Shown: piece by piece, positions 29,065 through 41,086 of the stretch
Layout of the letters: each line of letters starts with the position of its first letter
How positions within the stretch are numbered: the stretch's first letter is position 1
Assembly (NCBI GenBank): GCA_001776935.1
Contig: MFDN01000001.1
Span: 101,449-165,448 of the forward strand
Direction: 5' to 3'
Length of the DNA stretch: 64,000 nt
Source of the DNA: Candidatus Daviesbacteria bacterium RIFCSPLOWO2_01_FULL_39_23
GTDB lineage: Bacteria; Patescibacteriota; Microgenomatia; Daviesbacterales; UBA10151
Notes under the pieces: model-generated
What the model saw: the letters and a program-made list of their open reading frames with translations, nothing else
Told to the model about the DNA's origin: nothing
Databases searched by the model: none
Made by a program: the position numbers and the translations under genes

Positions 29065-30688
29065 GATTAAAATAGTTATTCTGATTTTAATTATATTTCT
29101 TGCAGCTTCCTTGCGCCTTTATAAATTGGATCAAATCCCCCCTTCTTTAAATTGGGATGAAACTGCCGGGGCTTATAATGCTTATGTAATTGCAAACTGG
29201 GCAAGGGACGAATGGGGCCAGTTTCTTCCTTTAATCTTTACCTCTTTTAGGGATGACAAGCACCCTGTGCATGTATACATCACTGCAGTGGTTGTGAAAA
29301 TCTTCGGATTATCAGACTTTACCGCCAGGCTGTCGGGAGCGCTGGTTGGGATATTTTCCGTGCTGGTAATTTATTATTTGGCTGGCATTTTTTTTAAAAA
29401 TAGCTTGGCAGCGTTATTTTCCGCCTTTTTTTTGGCTGTATCTCCTTATCACCTGCAATTTTCAAGGGGGTTATGGGAAGTTAATTTTGCTCTTTTTTTC
29501 TTTTTGCTGGGTCTTTTGATGTTTTATTTAGGAATAAAAAAGAAAGCCCGGCTTATTAATATTTCTTTTTTCAGCTTTGGACTTAGCCTATTGTCTTATC
29601 ATTCGTCAAAAGTAGTTGTTCCTATGATGGTGCTTTTGCTGGTTGTTTTGTATTTTAAGGATCTTAGAAAACTTTCATTAAATTTTTACACAGGCATATT
29701 TATTTTCCTTATTTTTATTACTTTATTATTTATCGATCCGCGCCTGGTAGGATTTGCCAGGGCAAAGCAAACACAATTCGGCCAGGATGTTATTGAAAAG
29801 ACTCGAATATATCAAAAAACAAAAAATTCCACACTTGGACTGGCAGAAATTGCATTAAATCAGTATATAACTCATTTTTCTCTAAACTATTTATTTCTTT
29901 ACGGCGATCAAAGTCCGCGAAATTCTGTTAAAACAAGTGGGGAATTCTATAAATCAGATGGCTTATTTTTTATTGCCGGTCTTTTGTACCTAATAAAATT
30001 AAGATCAAGAGTTAGTCTGGTCTTACTTTTTTGGTTGCTGCTGGCACCAATACCATCCAGCTTGGTAGGCGGAGCTCCCAGCGCTACAAGAGCAATTTTT
30101 ATGGCGGGAAGCATGCATCTTTTGGCGGGGGCAGGCGCAGCAGGCATTGCCGGATTGCTGGGTAAAAAACTTAAGGTTTTTGTCGTGATTTTAATTCTTC
30201 TTTTTGTGAGCGTACAGGCTTATTTTTTTCTTGGCTACTATTTTAATGCCTATCCCAAAAAAGACCCTCATGAGTGGCAATACGGGATGAAGCAAATTGT
30301 AGAATTTGTTAAAGAACACGAGGAATATGACTATATCTTTATGACTGATATACGTTCTCAGCCGTATATATTTTTTCTATATTATTTAAAACACCCTCTA
30401 CCTGAATATTTAAACAGTGTGGTGTACAATAATAGTGAAGAGAGTGTAAAATATAATACTGTTTCCTATTTTGGCGGGTATTACTTGGGAAAAGAGGGGG
30501 AGGAAAGAAGGATTAATGTCTATTTTGGAGGTTGGGATCCGATTGAAAGCACTCCTGATAAAGGAAGGCTTTATGTAGTCAGTCCAAGCCAGTATGATGG
30601 GCTTAAGCACAGGTCAAGTTTTGATGTTAAAAAGATAATTTATTATCCTGACGGAGGAAAAGCTTTTTATATCGTAAGCGCAACTTGA
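29042..30688 (+). CDS. PMT/ArnT-superfamily GT-C glycosyltransferase, paralog g
   Basis: LNWDETAGAYNAYVIANWARDEWG, SPYHLQFSRGLWE, and C-terminal HEWQYGMKQIV. It overlaps paralog f by about 20 nt. Confidence 0.65.
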   Translation: MFMNTQNKIKIVILILIIFLAASLRLYKLDQIPPSLNWDETAGAYNAYVIANWARDEWGQFLPLIFTSFRDDKHPVHVYITAVVVKIFGLSDFTARLSGALVGIFSVLVIYYLAGIFFKNSLAALFSAFFLAVSPYHLQFSRGLWEVNFALFFFLLGLLMFYLGIKKKARLINISFFSFGLSLLSYHSSKVVVPMMVLLLVVLYFKDLRKLSLNFYTGIFIFLIFITLLFIDPRLVGFARAKQTQFGQDVIEKTRIYQKTKNSTLGLAEIALNQYITHFSLNYLFLYGDQSPRNSVKTSGEFYKSDGLFFIAGLLYLIKLRSRVSLVLLFWLLLAPIPSSLVGGAPSATRAIFMAGSMHLLAGAGAAGIAGLLGKKLKVFVVILILLFVSVQAYFFLGYYFNAYPKKDPHEWQYGMKQIVEFVKEHEEYDYIFMTDIRSQPYIFFLYYLKHPLPEYLNSVVYNNSEESVKYNTVSYFGGYYLGKEGEERRINVYFGGWDPIESTPDKGRLYVVSPSQYDGLKHRSSFDVKKIIYYPDGGKAFYIVSAT

Positions 30689-36529: not shown

Positions 36530-37264
36530 ATGAAGCATAAACAAAGAAGGTTTTTGCATAAAGGAAATTTTATTTCTTTGATAATTCCGGTTCTAAATGA
36601 GGAAAAAACTTTAGCAACCATTATAGATAAGTGTTCTACTCAGTCGGTGGTTAAGCAGTTAGTTATAGTAAATGACGGATCGACAGACGATACCCGTAGA
36701 ATATTAAATAAGATTAGTAAAAAAAGCAGTTCAAGACTCATTATTACAATATTGCATCATGATAATAACTTAGGGAAAGGTGCAGCAATAAAAACCGGAT
36801 TAGGCAAGGCGACAGGTAAATATGTGATGGTGCAGGATGCTGATTTGGAATATTCACCTGATGAAATCAAGCATTTATATAATAAGGCTGAAGAAACGGA
36901 AAGCGGGATAGTCTTTGGTACAAGATCGAATCATAAAAAAAAGGGGTATTTACTTGCTCAGCTGGGAAATTGGTATTTAAATTTGATGTTTAATTTTTTG
37001 TTTGGATATCATTTAACGGATAGCTATACCTGTTACAAATTAATACCCAGAACGATTTGGGAAAAGATGAAGCTGAGGTCAAATGGATTTGAAATTGATG
37101 CTGAGTTAATTGCAAAATTAGGTATATGGGGATACAAGATTACGGAGATTCCAATTTCGTATTTCCCCCGTAAATATTCTGAGGGTAAAAAAATTAAATG
37201 GTTAGATCTTTTTAAAGCAACAGGAGCCGCAATAAAAGTACGCCTTTTAGGAAGCAGTATCTAA
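36530..37264 (+). CDS. Polyprenyl-phosphate mannose/glucose synthase-like GT2 (DPM1/Ppm1-like, soluble)
   Basis: ISLIIPVLNEEKTL...VIVNDGSTDDT...LGKGAAIKTG...VQDADLEYSPDE. Confidence 0.6.
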   Translation: MKHKQRRFLHKGNFISLIIPVLNEEKTLATIIDKCSTQSVVKQLVIVNDGSTDDTRRILNKISKKSSSRLIITILHHDNNLGKGAAIKTGLGKATGKYVMVQDADLEYSPDEIKHLYNKAEETESGIVFGTRSNHKKKGYLLAQLGNWYLNLMFNFLFGYHLTDSYTCYKLIPRTIWEKMKLRSNGFEIDAELIAKLGIWGYKITEIPISYFPRKYSEGKKIKWLDLFKATGAAIKVRLLGSSI

Positions 37265-38197
37265 TCCTATCCAGGCGCCACCACCAAGAACAGATTTTTC
37301 TATGGCTGAAAGAACTTTTACTATCAAAACGCCTGTATTCATATCGGAAGTGATTTTTTGAAGCCCACGGATGGCCATAACAAATTCTAATAATTGTGCT
37401 GTTAGAGCAGCACCTTTTTCGTACTTGGGATATTGAGGTGGTTGGTTTAATTTATAATATGTTATTTTCTGATTAGAAATATTTGTATCGTCAAATTCTA
37501 TCTTTTCGTCTGTTCCTTCTATAGTAAGCTTTCGAATTTTATGAGTTCCGAACCAGCTGATATTTATTACAGCTTCAAGGTTATTTGCAAAAAGCATTTT
37601 AAATTTTACTGTATCATATAAATTATTTCTAGACTGATTAATTGAACCGACGGCTTTAACTTTTATAATTTGGGATTTTACTAAATCTAAAATTATGGAT
37701 ACCGGATGAGGGCCCCAGTCCCAGATAACGGAGGCGTCCTTACGGATGGGACTACATACACCCTCAAAATTTATTGATTTAACACTTTTAATTTTTTTGA
37801 ATAATGTTTTAACTCTACGATAGGCAGGATTATATAGATAAAGATGACCGGTTAATACTTTAGGTTTTGTTATTTTCCAGATTCTTTGCAACTGAAGGGC
37901 TCGGTCATAATTTGCAGTTAAGGGTTTTTCTATTAATAAATTATGGTTTAAAGCCAAAAGTTTTTTTGCTATATCAAAATGGGTAGAAATGGGCGTTGCA
38001 ATAATGAATCCATCAATATCCTTATTTTTTAACAGATCATTAATTGTTAAAGTTTTAATGTATGAATTTGGTAAGGAGTCAAGTGATTTTTGAGTTTGAG
38101 AGCAGATATATTTGATTTCAATATCTTTAATATTCTTAGCAGTGTGAAGATAATTCCGACCCCACTTACCTGTGCCGATAAGCGCTAAAGTAATCAC
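37247..38197 (-). CDS. Gfo/Idh/MocA-family NAD(P)-dependent sugar oxidoreductase
   Basis: A Rossmann N-terminus (M/V)ITLALIGTGKWG starts at a GTG. The ORF track extends 50 codons further upstream (to 38347), through a GC-rich hairpin-rich stretch, and I interpret that extension as non-coding. Confidence 0.55.
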   Translation of the reverse strand: MITLALIGTGKWGRNYLHTAKNIKDIEIKYICSQTQKSLDSLPNSYIKTLTINDLLKNKDIDGFIIATPISTHFDIAKKLLALNHNLLIEKPLTANYDRALQLQRIWKITKPKVLTGHLYLYNPAYRRVKTLFKKIKSVKSINFEGVCSPIRKDASVIWDWGPHPVSIILDLVKSQIIKVKAVGSINQSRNNLYDTVKFKMLFANNLEAVINISWFGTHKIRKLTIEGTDEKIEFDDTNISNQKITYYKLNQPPQYPKYEKGAALTAQLLEFVMAIRGLQKITSDMNTGVLIVKVLSAIEKSVLGGGAWIGLDTAS

Positions 38198-38336
38198 CCT
38201 ATAACCGCTTCGCCAAACATAAGCACTCTTAGTGCGGGGATGAAGGCGAAGCAAGGTTACAGTCTTCCGCGGCATGAGATGCGAAGCGGATGTAAACTTA
38301 GAATCAAGAAAACCACGGCTTAAAAGCCGCGGAAGT
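38198..38336 (-). promoter_or_regulatory. GC-rich structured RNA element (candidate attenuator / riboswitch-like leader or small RNA) between two sugar-modification genes
   Basis: About half G+C, against roughly one third in the flanks. Perfect complementary pairs: 38326-38335 with 38264-38273 (10 bp); and 38205-38214 with either 38281-38289 (9 bp) or 38245-38252 (8 bp), which are mutually exclusive. The terminator sits at the 5' end. Confidence 0.4.
38305..38332 (-). terminator. Intrinsic (rho-independent) terminator directly after the 38337..39395 gene
   Basis: On the minus-strand RNA, CCGCGGC-UUUUAA-GCCGUGG forms a 7-bp stem followed by UUUUCUU. Confidence 0.5.
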
Positions 38337-39395
38337 TTATAGCCCATAGGTTTGCCTAAACCAGTTAATAGTTTGCTTGAGGCCTGTTATAAGATCTACT
38401 TTTGGTGCATAATTCAACTGATTTTTTATTTTTGTTAAATCAGGGCATCGCCTTTGCGGTTCCCCGGCTGGATAATTTGGCGGATAATTTTTTCTTCGGG
38501 GTTTAACACCATTGCCTAATATTTCAGCTATGGTTTGTGCCAACTCAAACATTCCTATTTCCGGTTTGTCATTGCCGATATTGTAGGCTTCGCCTTTTTT
38601 TCCGGTGATCAATACTTTAAAGATAGCTGTAATTGCATCCGATATATAACAAAAAGTTCTTGTTTGAACACCTTTATCGTGTACTGGTAAATCTTTGCCC
38701 CGTAAGCCATTATAAATAAATGTTGGTACCACCCGGTAATCGATATGCTTCATGCCAGGGCCATAGATATTAAACGGTCTGACTATTTTTATAGGAACTT
38801 TGTAAATTTGATGGTATGTTACGCATAAGGTTTCTGCAAGTCTTTTGGATTCATCGTAGCAAGCTCTTGGTCCAACGCTTGAAACGTGTCCGGCATATGT
38901 TTCCGGAGTGGGAACAAATTCGGGATGAGGATCTCCGTAAATTTCACTTGAAGAAAAAAATAAAAAACTCTCCGGTTTGGTAACCCGCGCCAATTCTAAA
39001 AGATTTTTGGCTCCAAGGATTGCACTTTCGATTGTTTCTAAGGGATATTTTTTATAATAATAGGGGGAAGCTAAGCCTGCCGCGTGAATTATATAATCAA
39101 CTTTTTCATTTGTAATGACTGGAAGTCTGATGTCTCCATCCAGAAATTGGAAATTTTTATCCTTAATATTTAACAGGAAGTTTTTCTTGGAACCTGTGAT
39201 ATAGTTATCAATTGAAATTACCTTGCATTTATTTTTAAAGACTTTTTTGTTCAGAAGATATAAAACTGCATTAACATAAGAGCCTATAAACCCGGATCCT
39301 CCTGATATCAAAATTATTTTTCCTTCCAAAGCGGTTGCCTCCTGTTTGATATCGTTGACAATCGTATTTAGGATTCGAGAAGTTATTTTGGACAT
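38337..39395 (-). CDS. UDP-glucuronate decarboxylase (UXS/ArnA-C-like) short-chain dehydrogenase/reductase (SDR)
   Basis: ILISGGSGFIGSYV, SSSEIYGDP, ACYDESKRLAETLC, and RPFNIYGPGM. Confidence 0.65.
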   Translation of the reverse strand: MSKITSRILNTIVNDIKQEATALEGKIILISGGSGFIGSYVNAVLYLLNKKVFKNKCKVISIDNYITGSKKNFLLNIKDKNFQFLDGDIRLPVITNEKVDYIIHAAGLASPYYYKKYPLETIESAILGAKNLLELARVTKPESFLFFSSSEIYGDPHPEFVPTPETYAGHVSSVGPRACYDESKRLAETLCVTYHQIYKVPIKIVRPFNIYGPGMKHIDYRVVPTFIYNGLRGKDLPVHDKGVQTRTFCYISDAITAIFKVLITGKKGEAYNIGNDKPEIGMFELAQTIAEILGNGVKPRRKNYPPNYPAGEPQRRCPDLTKIKNQLNYAPKVDLITGLKQTINWFRQTYGL

Positions 39396-41057: not shown

Positions 41058-41086
41058 AATATATAGAGGATTAGATTGATTGTCAA
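41058..41086 (-). promoter_or_regulatory. Candidate sigma70-like promoter for the minus-strand operon starting at 41052
   Basis: On the minus strand, TTGACA-N17-TATATT lies about 14 nt upstream of the ATG. Confidence 0.35.

What the first reader, a model, noticed from the sequence alone, without database searches (positions are those of the whole stretch)
38198..38336. GC-rich, highly self-complementary intergenic element of about 140 nt with a terminator and mutually exclusive helices
The stretch between the UXS-like gene (stop at 38337) and the Gfo/Idh/MocA gene (Rossmann motif begins at about 38197) is much GC-richer than its surroundings. On the transcribed minus strand it begins with a clean intrinsic terminator, CCGCGGC-UUUUAA-GCCGUGG followed by UUUUCUU. 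It also contains perfect long-range complements:
- 38326-38335 pairs with 38264-38273 (10 bp), overlapping the 5' arm of the terminator
- the segment 38205-38214, just 5' of the putative GTG start, pairs with either 38281-38289 (9 bp) or 38245-38252 (8 bp)

This alternative-pairing layout is typical of attenuators or riboswitches, or of a processed small RNA. I could not match it to a known riboswitch class. The six-frame track instead translates it as a 50-aa R/K/S/L-rich N-terminal extension, which looks non-protein-like.
Basis: seen in the sequence. Interest (0 to 1): 0.7.

Follow-up and report, generated by a model that had tools for sequence, protein, structure and literature searches.

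The report
Orphan palindromic insertion between coupled genes
A 139-base, GC-rich, hairpin-forming stretch has been inserted in one groundwater Daviesbacteria species between two sugar-pathway genes that abut directly in all six relatives examined, so it is a lineage-specific insertion and not a conserved riboswitch, and it probably now forces the downstream enzyme to be made with an extra 50-residue leader.

Summary
Window 38198-38336 is about 50% GC in a 34.6% GC genome.

The riboswitch/attenuator reading is not supported:
- Six orthologous Daviesbacteria loci with the same gene order have only -4 to +2 nt between the SDR stop and the Gfo/Idh/MocA start. The 139 nt are therefore a lineage-specific insertion into a translational-coupling junction.
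- Rfam finds nothing.
- The opposite strand folds almost as well (z -3.7).
- The helix that competes with the terminator is transcribed after the U-tract.
- No compensatory changes exist among the three alleles available.

No second copy was found in 74 kb of this genome or in exact-word scans of public genome, metagenome and viral collections. BLAST of plasmids and phages and two peptide searches were also empty. The end repeats are not significant, so mobility is unproven.

The frame from ATG 38347, which overlaps the SDR stop, stays open into Gfo in all three alleles, including one with an in-frame 87-nt insert. The homologous GTG start lies at the foot of a -30 kcal/mol helix.

My best reading is an orphan MITE/RPE-like palindromic insertion that is read through in frame. 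Interest is modest.

The parts
38198..38336 (-). Inserted GC-rich palindromic element, 139 nt. The boundaries could shift by a few nt if TA or TATA is a target duplication.
   Evidence: Six orthologous loci have -4 to +2 nt here. GC is about 0.5. Fold z is -4.2.
38313..38332 (-). Hairpin H1 (CCGCGGC UUUUAA GCCGUGG), terminator-like.
   Evidence: -13.7 kcal/mol. In allele L090, G.U at 38330/38315 becomes G-C.
38306..38312 (-). U-tract UUUUCUU that follows H1.
38264..38273 (-). Distal perfect complement (GCCGCGGAAG) of 38326-38335. It competes with H1 at equal total energy.
38293..38299 (-). AAGUUUA, which pairs with UAAACUU (38333-38339) and encloses H1 in the MFE fold. The 87-nt extra segment of allele L090 is inserted just 3' of it (after 38292), flanked by 13-nt direct repeats ATTCTRAGTTTAM.
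38266..38290 (-). Middle hairpin (UCCGC..GCAU CUC AUGC.GCGGA).
38199..38262 (-). Stem-loop B. A 16-pair outer helix (CUGUAACC..GCUUCGCC with GGCGAAGC GGUUAUAG) encloses the hairpin GCACU AAG AGUGC. It is -30.1 kcal/mol and ends one base before the GTG start.
   Evidence: The allele L088 SNP 38257 A>T breaks one pair.
38345..38347 (-). ATG that opens the 366-aa frame. It overlaps the SDR end by 11 nt (ATGGGCTATAA) and arises from a lineage-specific Gln/Asn/His to Gly codon change.
38195..38197 (-). GTG that aligns with the Met start of all orthologous Gfo/Idh/MocA proteins.
   Evidence: Its start region has a mean unpaired probability of 0.227, the 2nd percentile of 48 gene starts.
38194..38220 (-). 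Out-of-frame 8-codon mini-ORF (AUG UUU GGC GAA GCG GUU AUA GGG UGA). Its stop overlaps the GTG start (GTGA).
   Evidence: Read directly. Its function is untested.
38337..39395 (-). Upstream gene: NAD-dependent epimerase/dehydratase (SDR, UXS-like), 352 aa.
37247..38197 (-). Downstream gene core: Gfo/Idh/MocA oxidoreductase. It is annotated in public records as 366 aa starting at 38347.

Best explanation
Window 38198-38336 is a lineage-specific insertion of an orphan, GC-rich DNA segment made of two overlapping palindromes. It resembles MITEs and Rickettsia palindromic elements (RPEs). It sits in the junction between two genes (SDR, then Gfo/Idh/MocA) that were translationally coupled before the insertion. 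It is not a conserved riboswitch or attenuator.

Shown:
- The segment is absent from six orthologous operons.
- It is fixed in this species and polymorphic there.
- Both strands have strong palindromic structure.
- No other copy or relative could be detected.

Inferred mechanism:
- The element is co-transcribed with the FdtA-like / C-methyltransferase / SDR / Gfo operon.
- The ancestral Gfo start (GTG 38197) now lies at the foot of a -30 kcal/mol helix, in a genome that mostly lacks Shine-Dalgarno sites.
- Gfo is therefore probably made by ribosomes that (re)initiate at ATG 38347, which overlaps the SDR stop codon, and read through the element. This melts the structure and yields a protein with a 50-residue leader (79 residues in one allele) whose sequence is unconstrained.
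- When no ribosome follows the polymerase, hairpin H1 plus its U-tract can form and stop transcription. The net effect would be to lower Gfo expression and make it depend on translation, compared with the upstream genes.
For: Insertion:
- Six independent orthologous loci have identical gene order and a 352-aa SDR, with the SDR stop and Gfo start spaced by -4, -1, 0, +1, +1 and +2 nt. The window has 139 nt.
- Gfo homologues are 293-317 aa and cover only about 85% of the 366-aa ORF.

Not an assembly artefact:
- The same 366-aa product is on 34 contigs from NCBI, JGI, ENA and Logan.

Foreign or odd nature:
- GC is about 50% against 34.6% for the genome and 16-36% for other spacers.
- Both strands fold well, with z -4.2 and -3.7.

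Read-through:
- The frame from ATG 38347 is open in all three alleles (P0123, P0001, P0126).
- The L090 allele's extra 87 nt equal 29 codons with no stop, and only one of its three frames is open.
- Shuffles give P(no stop) of 0.17 for the window allele and 0.13 for the 87-nt piece, each to be multiplied by 1/3 for phase.
- The GTG 38197 start region is more structured than 98% of 48 gene starts in the window.
- 37 of 50 genes lack any SD-like motif.
- Two SDR C-terminal substitutions unique to this lineage create the ATG and an AGG 8 nt upstream of it.

Weak constraint on the element's sequence:
- 5 of about 10 strain differences in about 5 kb fall within the 139 nt, and 4 of those 5 change the peptide.

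Precedent:
- In-frame palindromic RPEs, the terminator-like SPRITE and co-transcribed Correia/ERIC elements are reviewed in PMC10969869.
Against: Mobility is not shown:
- No second copy was found in the 64-kb window, in 10 kb beyond it, or in about 35 kb of related Daviesbacteria loci.
- Exact-word scans found no related copy in GTDB species genomes (20-mer), JGI metagenomes (18-mer) or IMG/VR.
- BLAST against plasmids and phages found nothing.
- The terminal inverted repeat is only 6 nt (shuffle P 0.09). The flanking direct repeat is 6 of 7 nt (P 0.12).

Translation through the element rests on three alleles and post-hoc probabilities of roughly 0.05 each. An 8-codon mini-ORF whose stop overlaps the GTG could instead deliver ribosomes to the native start.

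No expression data were available. If H1 terminates efficiently, Gfo could simply be silenced.
Confidence: 0.55

Rival explanations
1. Lineage-specific cis-regulatory RNA. Whatever its origin, the element is kept because H1 acts as an internal intrinsic terminator or attenuator that lowers Gfo expression relative to the three upstream genes. The bistable helices or stem-loop B would gate translation of Gfo.
For: - H1 is the best terminator-like site in 20 kb, and both alleles keep it. L090 even improves it (G.U to G-C, and a longer U-run).
- The H1 fold and the long-range-helix fold have equal energy, -56.0 kcal/mol.
- Two of three helix SNPs preserve pairing.
- The minus strand folds 4.6 kcal/mol better than the plus strand.
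Against: - The element is absent from six orthologous operons.
- The competitor helix is transcribed after the U-tract, so it cannot act as an antiterminator.
- There is no Rfam match.
- There are no compensatory changes, and one pair-breaking SNP.
- The element is the most polymorphic stretch of the locus.
- Terminator-like sites are not enriched in this genome (15 found against 13.4 expected).
Confidence: 0.2
2. In-situ origin without mobility. The palindromes grew at this junction by fold-back or template-switch replication errors and slippage, or they are the decayed remnant of a larger lost insert. On this view the segment is neutral junk that happens to keep a frame open.
For: - Short motifs are reused in direct and inverted copies: CCGCGG twice, GCTTCGC three times, and GGYTAYAR at the left end, centre (inverted) and right end.
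- The left copy overlaps the host codons Leu-stop, which are conserved in relatives.
- An 87-nt indel is flanked by 13-nt direct repeats, the signature of slippage or deletion.
- No other copy exists anywhere searched.
Against: - The 50% GC composition is hard to derive from 30-35% GC flanks.
- No part of the element matches any other sequence in the window (longest match 13 nt).
- The direct and inverted end similarities are not significant.
Confidence: 0.17
3. Independent small RNA gene, on either strand, inserted between the genes.
For: Both strands have strong structure. On the minus strand the hairpin is followed by a U-run.
Against: - The terminator-like hairpin lies at the 5' end of the element on the minus strand, not at its 3' end.
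- No promoter-like site of at least 9/12 lies within or just upstream of the element on either strand.
- There is no Rfam family and no homologue elsewhere.
Confidence: 0.04
4. A genuine, selected N-terminal protein domain of the oxidoreductase, such as a targeting or membrane-anchor peptide.
For: - The frame is open in all alleles.
- The L090 allele adds a hydrophobic stretch (FTIFYLSVVFAAGGFLTF) after a basic N-terminus, which resembles a signal anchor.
Against: - No orthologue has it.
- No relative exists in 1.84 billion representatives.
- 4 of 5 strain substitutions are non-synonymous.
- Its composition is set by the GC-rich palindromes.
Confidence: 0.04

Closest known systems
Rickettsia palindromic elements (RPEs)
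   Same: They are about 100-150 bp palindromic inserts in small AT-rich genomes. They are tolerated because they stay in frame and are translated as extra peptide (PMC10969869). Here a 139-nt palindrome is read in frame as a 50-aa leader, and an allele differs by an in-frame 87 nt.
   Different: RPEs are multi-copy families with conserved peptides. This element is single-copy in everything that could be searched. It sits at a gene junction and creates an N-terminal extension through a new overlapping ATG, where RPEs interrupt a domain.
Bacterial MITEs co-transcribed with neighbours (Correia/CREE of Neisseria, ERIC, RUP, BOX, and SPRITE of S. pneumoniae)
   Same: The size class is the same, and the transcript forms long hairpins. 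Insertion is at or next to gene ends in operons. SPRITE carries a Rho-independent terminator-like hairpin. Correia has TA target duplication, and here TA/TATA flank the insert (and my own knowledge).
   Different: There are no significant terminal inverted repeats or target duplication. There is no copy family and no parent IS. The phylum (CPR, Daviesbacteria) is one where I found no report of MITEs: one literature search returned one unrelated paper.
Mobile GC clusters and double-hairpin elements of AT-rich fungal mitochondrial genomes
   Same: They are GC-rich palindromic mini-inserts in a very AT-rich, compact genome, sometimes in frame in coding sequence. This comparison is from my own knowledge and was not tested.
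   Different: The genetic system is different, those elements are multi-copy, and there is no sequence relationship.
Transcription attenuators and riboswitches
   Same: There is a terminator-like hairpin whose 5' arm has an alternative partner, and a start codon sequestered by a helix.
   Different: The element is not conserved in orthologous leaders. The alternative partner lies downstream of the terminator. There is no ligand-binding family match and no covariation.

Membership tests
Riboswitch / conserved cis-regulatory RNA | Present upstream of orthologous genes in related genomes | tested here: not met
   Six orthologous loci have -4 to +2 nt between the genes.
Riboswitch / conserved cis-regulatory RNA | Match to a curated family, or covariation that supports the helices | tested here: not met
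   Rfam gives no hit at the gathering score and only two chance hits at E<=10. Of 48 pairs, 0 have double-sided changes. That test has almost no power with three near-identical alleles.
Transcription attenuator | Antiterminator formed from sequence transcribed before or with the terminator's 5' arm | tested here: not met
   The competing segment 38264-38273 lies 3' of the U-tract 38306-38312.
Intrinsic (Rho-independent) terminator | G+C-rich hairpin immediately followed by a U-run | tested here: met
   8 pairs, 6 of them G-C, -13.7 kcal/mol, then UUUUCUU.
Intrinsic (Rho-independent) terminator | Transcripts end there | not testable with these tools
   No RNA data were available.
MITE | Small, non-coding, and an insertion relative to empty sites | tested here: met
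   139 nt, with empty sites in six relatives.
MITE | Terminal inverted repeats | tested here: inconclusive
   Only CTATAA/TTATAG, 6 nt, shuffle P 0.09. The strong inverted repeats are internal.
MITE | Target-site duplication | tested here: inconclusive
   GGCTATA/GGTTATA match at 6 of 7, P 0.12. TA or TATA would restore a plausible junction: CTATAG G GTG, or GTGA.
MITE | Multiple copies per genome and/or a related autonomous IS | tested here: not met
   No copy in 74 kb of the genome or in related loci. No related hit in the genome, metagenome, viral, plasmid or phage searches. The whole genome could not be searched.
Rickettsia palindromic element-like in-frame insert | Palindromic insert that keeps the host reading frame open | tested here: met
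   The frame is open in three alleles, including the +87-nt allele.
Rickettsia palindromic element-like in-frame insert | Family of copies that encode a conserved peptide | tested here: not met
   The peptide has no relatives.
REP / BIME (RAYT-associated) | 20-40 nt palindrome preceded by a conserved GTAG-type tetranucleotide, in many copies | tested here: not met
   H1 is preceded by CTTC and is single-copy. Bacteroidota loci with the same 20-mer do have GTAG or ATAG before it.
Integron attC site | RYYYAAC and GTTRRRY core sites at the two ends | tested here: not met
   Read. The ends are TATAAAC and GTTATAG and the centre is CTGTAAC. None fits the cores.

The most novel reading that the evidence does not exclude
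CPR (and perhaps DPANN) ultra-small genomes may carry an undescribed class of GC-rich palindromic mini-inserts that survive by staying in frame, as RPEs do in Rickettsia.

In this case the insert would have captured translational coupling through a newly created overlapping ATG. It would be giving birth to a new N-terminal peptide, and in one allele the nested 87-nt module adds a signal-anchor-like hydrophobic segment.

One hint comes from a Woesearchaeota genome. The identical 20-nt hairpin CCGCGGCTTTTAAGCCGTGG lies inside a GC-rich insert of about 40 codons, in frame, within a DEDDh exonuclease gene. It is read in the same phase (PRLKSRG there, PRLLSRG here).
Probability: 0.12. Interest if true: 0.6.

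Novelty: new member of a known kind. Interest (0 to 1): 0.3.

Why it matters
- Annotation. Public records (for example KKR17239.1, KKQ83424.1 and OGE21314.1) describe a 366-aa oxidoreductase. Its first 50 residues are the translation of an inserted palindrome. Orthologues show that the enzyme proper starts at GTG 38197.
- Biology. The locus is a clean natural example of an insertion that breaks a stop/start overlap in an extremely compact genome. It suggests a route by which expression can be rescued: a new overlapping ATG and read-through. That is one way new N-terminal sequence can arise.
- Scope. Small palindromic inserts have hardly been described in CPR bacteria. A family of them would be a new source of genome plasticity there, but a single orphan copy does not establish that.
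- Screening. GC-rich, well-folding spacers in AT-rich genomes should be compared with orthologous loci before they are called riboswitches.

Tried and rejected
- Rfam at E<=10 on 800 nt, and at gathering score on the whole window and on seven hairpin loci. Only chance hits and two unrelated tRNAs.
- ARAGORN on the window and on loci. No tRNA or tmRNA.
- BLAST and nhmmer of the element against the window, 10 kb beyond it, eight Daviesbacteria loci and all fetched loci. No second copy.
- GTDB genome scan with the H1 20-mer. Seven hits, none in CPR. Five form an FCB-group hairpin family and share only the hairpin. The other two are within chance expectation (about 1-2.5).
- JGI metagenome scan with the 3'-arm 18-mer. 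All 74 hits are unrelated coding sequences.
- Three IMG/VR scans. Zero hits.
- Distant BLAST against plasmids and phages. No match.
- 50-aa peptide against 1.84 billion representatives. Only two repetitive, unrelated proteins.
- 79-aa peptide against the 5.8-billion set. No candidates. That tool appears insensitive for short queries, since it did not recover the parent proteins.
- tblastn of the leader and the 87-nt-encoded peptide against the window and related loci. Nothing.
- Anticodon-arm reading of H1 (CUUUUAA loop). Rejected, because the stem register gives a 6-nt loop.
- attC core sites and the REP GTAG. Not present.
- The GC-rich peak at 30000-30222. It lies inside a membrane-protein ORF and is unrelated.
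- +1 frameshift fusion of SDR and Gfo. Considered and dropped for lack of a slippery site.
- Assembly artefact. Rejected, because the same sequence occurs on 34 contigs from independent assemblies.

Full report
**Source and setting**

The window is a 34.6% GC contig. It is identical over 13 kb to a Rifle groundwater metagenome contig (PRJNA268031). Its proteins carry Candidatus Daviesbacteria names (GW2011_GWF2_38_7, GW2011_GWA2_39_33).

The finding lies in a minus-strand operon: a cupin/FdtA-like gene, a C-methyltransferase, a 352-aa SDR epimerase/dehydratase (38337-39395) and a Gfo/Idh/MocA oxidoreductase. An 11/12 sigma-70-like promoter match lies at 41086-41058.

**Checking the observation**

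- The stretch is 47-52% GC, more than 3 sd above the window mean. The few other spacers in this very compact window are 16-36% GC.
- The hairpin CCGCGGC-UUUUAA-GCCGUGG plus UUUUCUU is at 38332-38306 and has -13.7 kcal/mol. It is the best terminator-like site in 20 kb. Such sites as a class are no more frequent than in shuffles (15 against 13.4).
- The 10-bp, 9-bp and 8-bp perfect complements are confirmed.
- The 156-nt region folds to -56 kcal/mol against -40.1 +/- 3.75 for dinucleotide shuffles (z -4.2).
- Forcing the 10-bp long-range helix that competes with the terminator stem gives exactly the same energy, so the region is bistable at equilibrium. The 9-bp alternative costs 13 kcal/mol.

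**What the orthologues show**

A search with the 366-aa ORF found one cluster at 99% identity or more and then nothing closer than 62%. Homologues at 52-62% identity are 285-327 aa (P0050, 56%, is a 219-aa partial) and cover about 85% of the query, so they lack the first 50 residues.

I fetched six independent orthologous loci (L004, L005, L006, L091, L092, L093). All have the same gene order and a 352-aa SDR. In all six the SDR stop and the Gfo start are separated by -4, -1, 0, +1, +1 or +2 nt (TAATG, TAAnATG, GTGA and similar). Their Gfo proteins begin M-I/T/V-T-L-A-L-I-G, which aligns with GTG 38197 of the window. Pfam's Rossmann domain starts there as well.

The 139 nt are therefore an insertion, specific to this species' lineage, into a translational-coupling junction. 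This alone removes the idea of a conserved riboswitch or leader for this operon.

**Nature of the insert**

Rfam gives nothing. The plus strand folds almost as well (-51.4 kcal/mol, z -3.7), so most of the self-complementarity is a DNA-level palindrome and not a strand-specific RNA design.

The anatomy is two overlapping palindromes:
- A: GGCTATAAACTTCCGCGGC ... GCCGCGGAAGACTGTAACC, 19 nt at 79%.
- B: CTGTAACC-TT-GCTTCGCC ... GGCGAAGC-GGTTATAG, 16 pairs, -30.1 kcal/mol.

They share the central CTGTAACC, and short motifs are reused: CCGCGG twice and GCTTCGC three times.

The ends carry CTATAA and TTATAG. This can be read as a 6-nt inverted repeat (shuffle P 0.09) or as a 6-of-7 direct repeat (P 0.12). 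Removing the insert with a TATA or TA duplication restores a plausible junction (CTA TAG G GTG, or GGG TGA overlapping GTG), but this is not significant evidence.

**Search for other copies**

None was found in any of the following:
- the window, 10 kb beyond its right end, and about 35 kb of related Daviesbacteria loci;
- GTDB species genomes, scanned with the hairpin 20-mer;
- JGI metagenomes, scanned with an 18-mer of the 3' arm, where all 74 hits were unrelated coding sequence;
- IMG/VR;
- plasmids and phages;
- protein space, searched with the translated leader.

The rest of the roughly 1-Mb genome could not be searched. Mobility is therefore unproven, and the MITE hallmarks (terminal repeats, target duplication, copy number) are inconclusive or not met.

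**Variation within the species**

Three alleles exist in flanks that are otherwise at least 99.7% identical.
- L088 (GWF2_38_7) has 38257 A>T. This breaks an A-U pair of stem-loop B and changes Thr to Ser.
- L090 (JGI Ga0209417_1016081) has three substitutions. 38315 T>C turns G.U into G-C in H1. 38299 A>G turns U-A into U.G. 38305 G>T is unpaired.
- L090 also has an extra 87 nt after 38292, flanked by 13-nt direct repeats ATTCTRAGTTTAM. The extra piece itself forms two hairpins, and the whole 243-nt region has z -4.6.

Counting on the three-allele alignment gives 0 compensatory pairs, 2 one-sided pair-preserving changes and 1 broken pair. This is uninformative for RNA structure.

About half of all strain differences in roughly 5 kb fall within the 139 nt, and four of five change the encoded peptide. 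The sequence is therefore weakly constrained. The reading frame, however, is not broken in any allele. The 87 nt are 29 codons, and only the in-phase frame is stop-free. Shuffles give 0.17 (window allele) and 0.13 (87-nt piece) for stop-free frames, before the one-in-three chance of the right phase. This is suggestive but post hoc.

**How it most likely works (inference)**

- This genome mostly lacks Shine-Dalgarno motifs (37 of 50 genes), so initiation should depend on open, AT-rich start regions or on coupling.
- The ancestral start, GTG 38197, now sits one base after a -30 kcal/mol helix. Its start region has a mean unpaired probability of 0.227, lower than 98% of 48 gene starts in the window.
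- An ATG at 38347 overlaps the SDR end by 11 nt (ATGGGCTATAA) and opens the frame that runs through the element into Gfo.
- That ATG, and an AGG 8 nt upstream of it, arise from two substitutions unique to this lineage in a C-terminal motif that is otherwise conserved: WFK(Q/E)xY(Q/N/H)L* in six relatives, WFRQTYGL* here.

I therefore favour re-initiation at this ATG. Ribosomes would translate through the palindromes, unwinding them, and produce Gfo with a 50-aa leader (79 aa in L090). This is the same way Rickettsia palindromic elements are tolerated in frame (PMC10969869).

A ribosome that starts 11 nt upstream of H1 would also hinder formation of the terminator hairpin. Termination at H1 would then be sensitive to translation. 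That is the only attenuator-like behaviour the geometry allows, because the long-range competitor (38264-38273) is made after the U-tract.

An alternative route to native-length Gfo is an 8-codon mini-ORF (38220-38194) whose UGA overlaps the GTG (GUGA). I cannot separate the two routes without proteomics.

**Comparison with known systems and verdict**

The element behaves like small palindromic inserts: MITEs such as Correia, ERIC and SPRITE; RPEs; and the GC clusters of AT-rich mitochondrial genomes. It fails or leaves open the membership criteria that need a copy family, terminal repeats and target duplication. It is not a riboswitch, an attC site, a REP or a tRNA-like sequence. One literature search for MITEs in the Candidate Phyla Radiation returned only one unrelated paper.

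I rate it a new, orphan member of a known kind, with modest interest. The practical consequence is that the public 366-aa annotation contains 50 element-derived residues.

The most novel reading still open is an RPE-like class of in-frame GC-rich inserts in ultra-small genomes. It is hinted at by the same 20-nt hairpin lying in an in-frame insert of about 40 codons within a Woesearchaeota DEDDh exonuclease gene. Only the hairpin is shared, and two hits outside the FCB group are within chance expectation.

Noticed in passing
L090 1134-1220 (JGI Ga0209417_1016081); corresponds to an insertion after window 38292: A strain allele carries an extra 87 nt inside the element. It is AT-rich, forms two hairpins, and is flanked by 13-nt direct repeats ATTCTRAGTTTAM. 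It is exactly 29 codons with no stop and encodes a hydrophobic stretch (FTIFYLSVVFAAGGFLTF) after the basic N-terminus, which resembles a signal anchor. It could be a nested insert or the ancestral state of a repeat-mediated deletion.
   Followed up: partly
L013 3740-3865 (Woesearchaeota MAG CAZOCP010000005.1): A GC-rich (up to 61% in a 35% GC genome), strongly folding (-65 kcal/mol) stretch of about 120 nt lies in frame inside a DEDDh/RNase T-like exonuclease ORF. It sits between the conserved N-terminal part and the H-x4-D motif. It contains the identical 20-nt hairpin CCGCGGCTTTTAAGCCGTGG, read in the same phase (PRLKSRG against PRLLSRG here). It resembles an RPE-like in-frame insert in a DPANN archaeon.
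   Followed up: partly
L007 5144-5163, L008 83-102, L009 925-944, L010 6723-6742, L011 756-775: The same 20-nt hairpin recurs in Bacteroidota and Ignavibacteria MAGs. It is usually preceded by GTAG or ATAG, occurs twice in one Prevotellaceae MAG next to tRNA genes, and in three loci is followed about 20 nt later by GGCTTYAGCCGAAA. It looks like a REP-like or other unannotated hairpin family. No Rfam match.
   Followed up: partly
window 38194-38220 (-): An 8-codon mini-ORF (MFGEAVIG) lies inside the 3' arm of stem-loop B. Its UGA overlaps the GTG start of Gfo (GUGA). A UAAGAG sits in the loop 5 nt upstream of its AUG. This could be an alternative coupling route.
   Followed up: no
window 41058-41086 (-): The best promoter-like match in 20 kb (TTGACA-17-TATATT, 11/12) lies about 6 nt upstream of the first gene of the operon. 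Several other genes have TATAAT-like hexamers 7-12 nt before the ATG, and 37 of 50 genes lack SD-like motifs. This hints at frequent leaderless or short-leader mRNAs in this genome.
   Followed up: partly
window 37247-37264: The 3' ends of the convergent Gfo/Idh/MocA gene (-) and GT2 glycosyltransferase gene (+) overlap by 18 nt, with no terminator-like site between them.
   Followed up: no
window 38343-38345 and 38362-38364 (SDR C-terminus): Two substitutions unique to this lineage occur in a C-terminal motif that is otherwise conserved: K to R (AGG) and Q/N/H to G (GGG). Together they create an AGG-N8-ATG that overlaps the SDR stop. This may be compensatory evolution after the insertion.
   Followed up: partly
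window 30000-30222: The highest GC peak of the window (59%) lies inside a 548-aa membrane-protein ORF (Ala/Gly-rich segment) and is unrelated to the element.
   Followed up: yes
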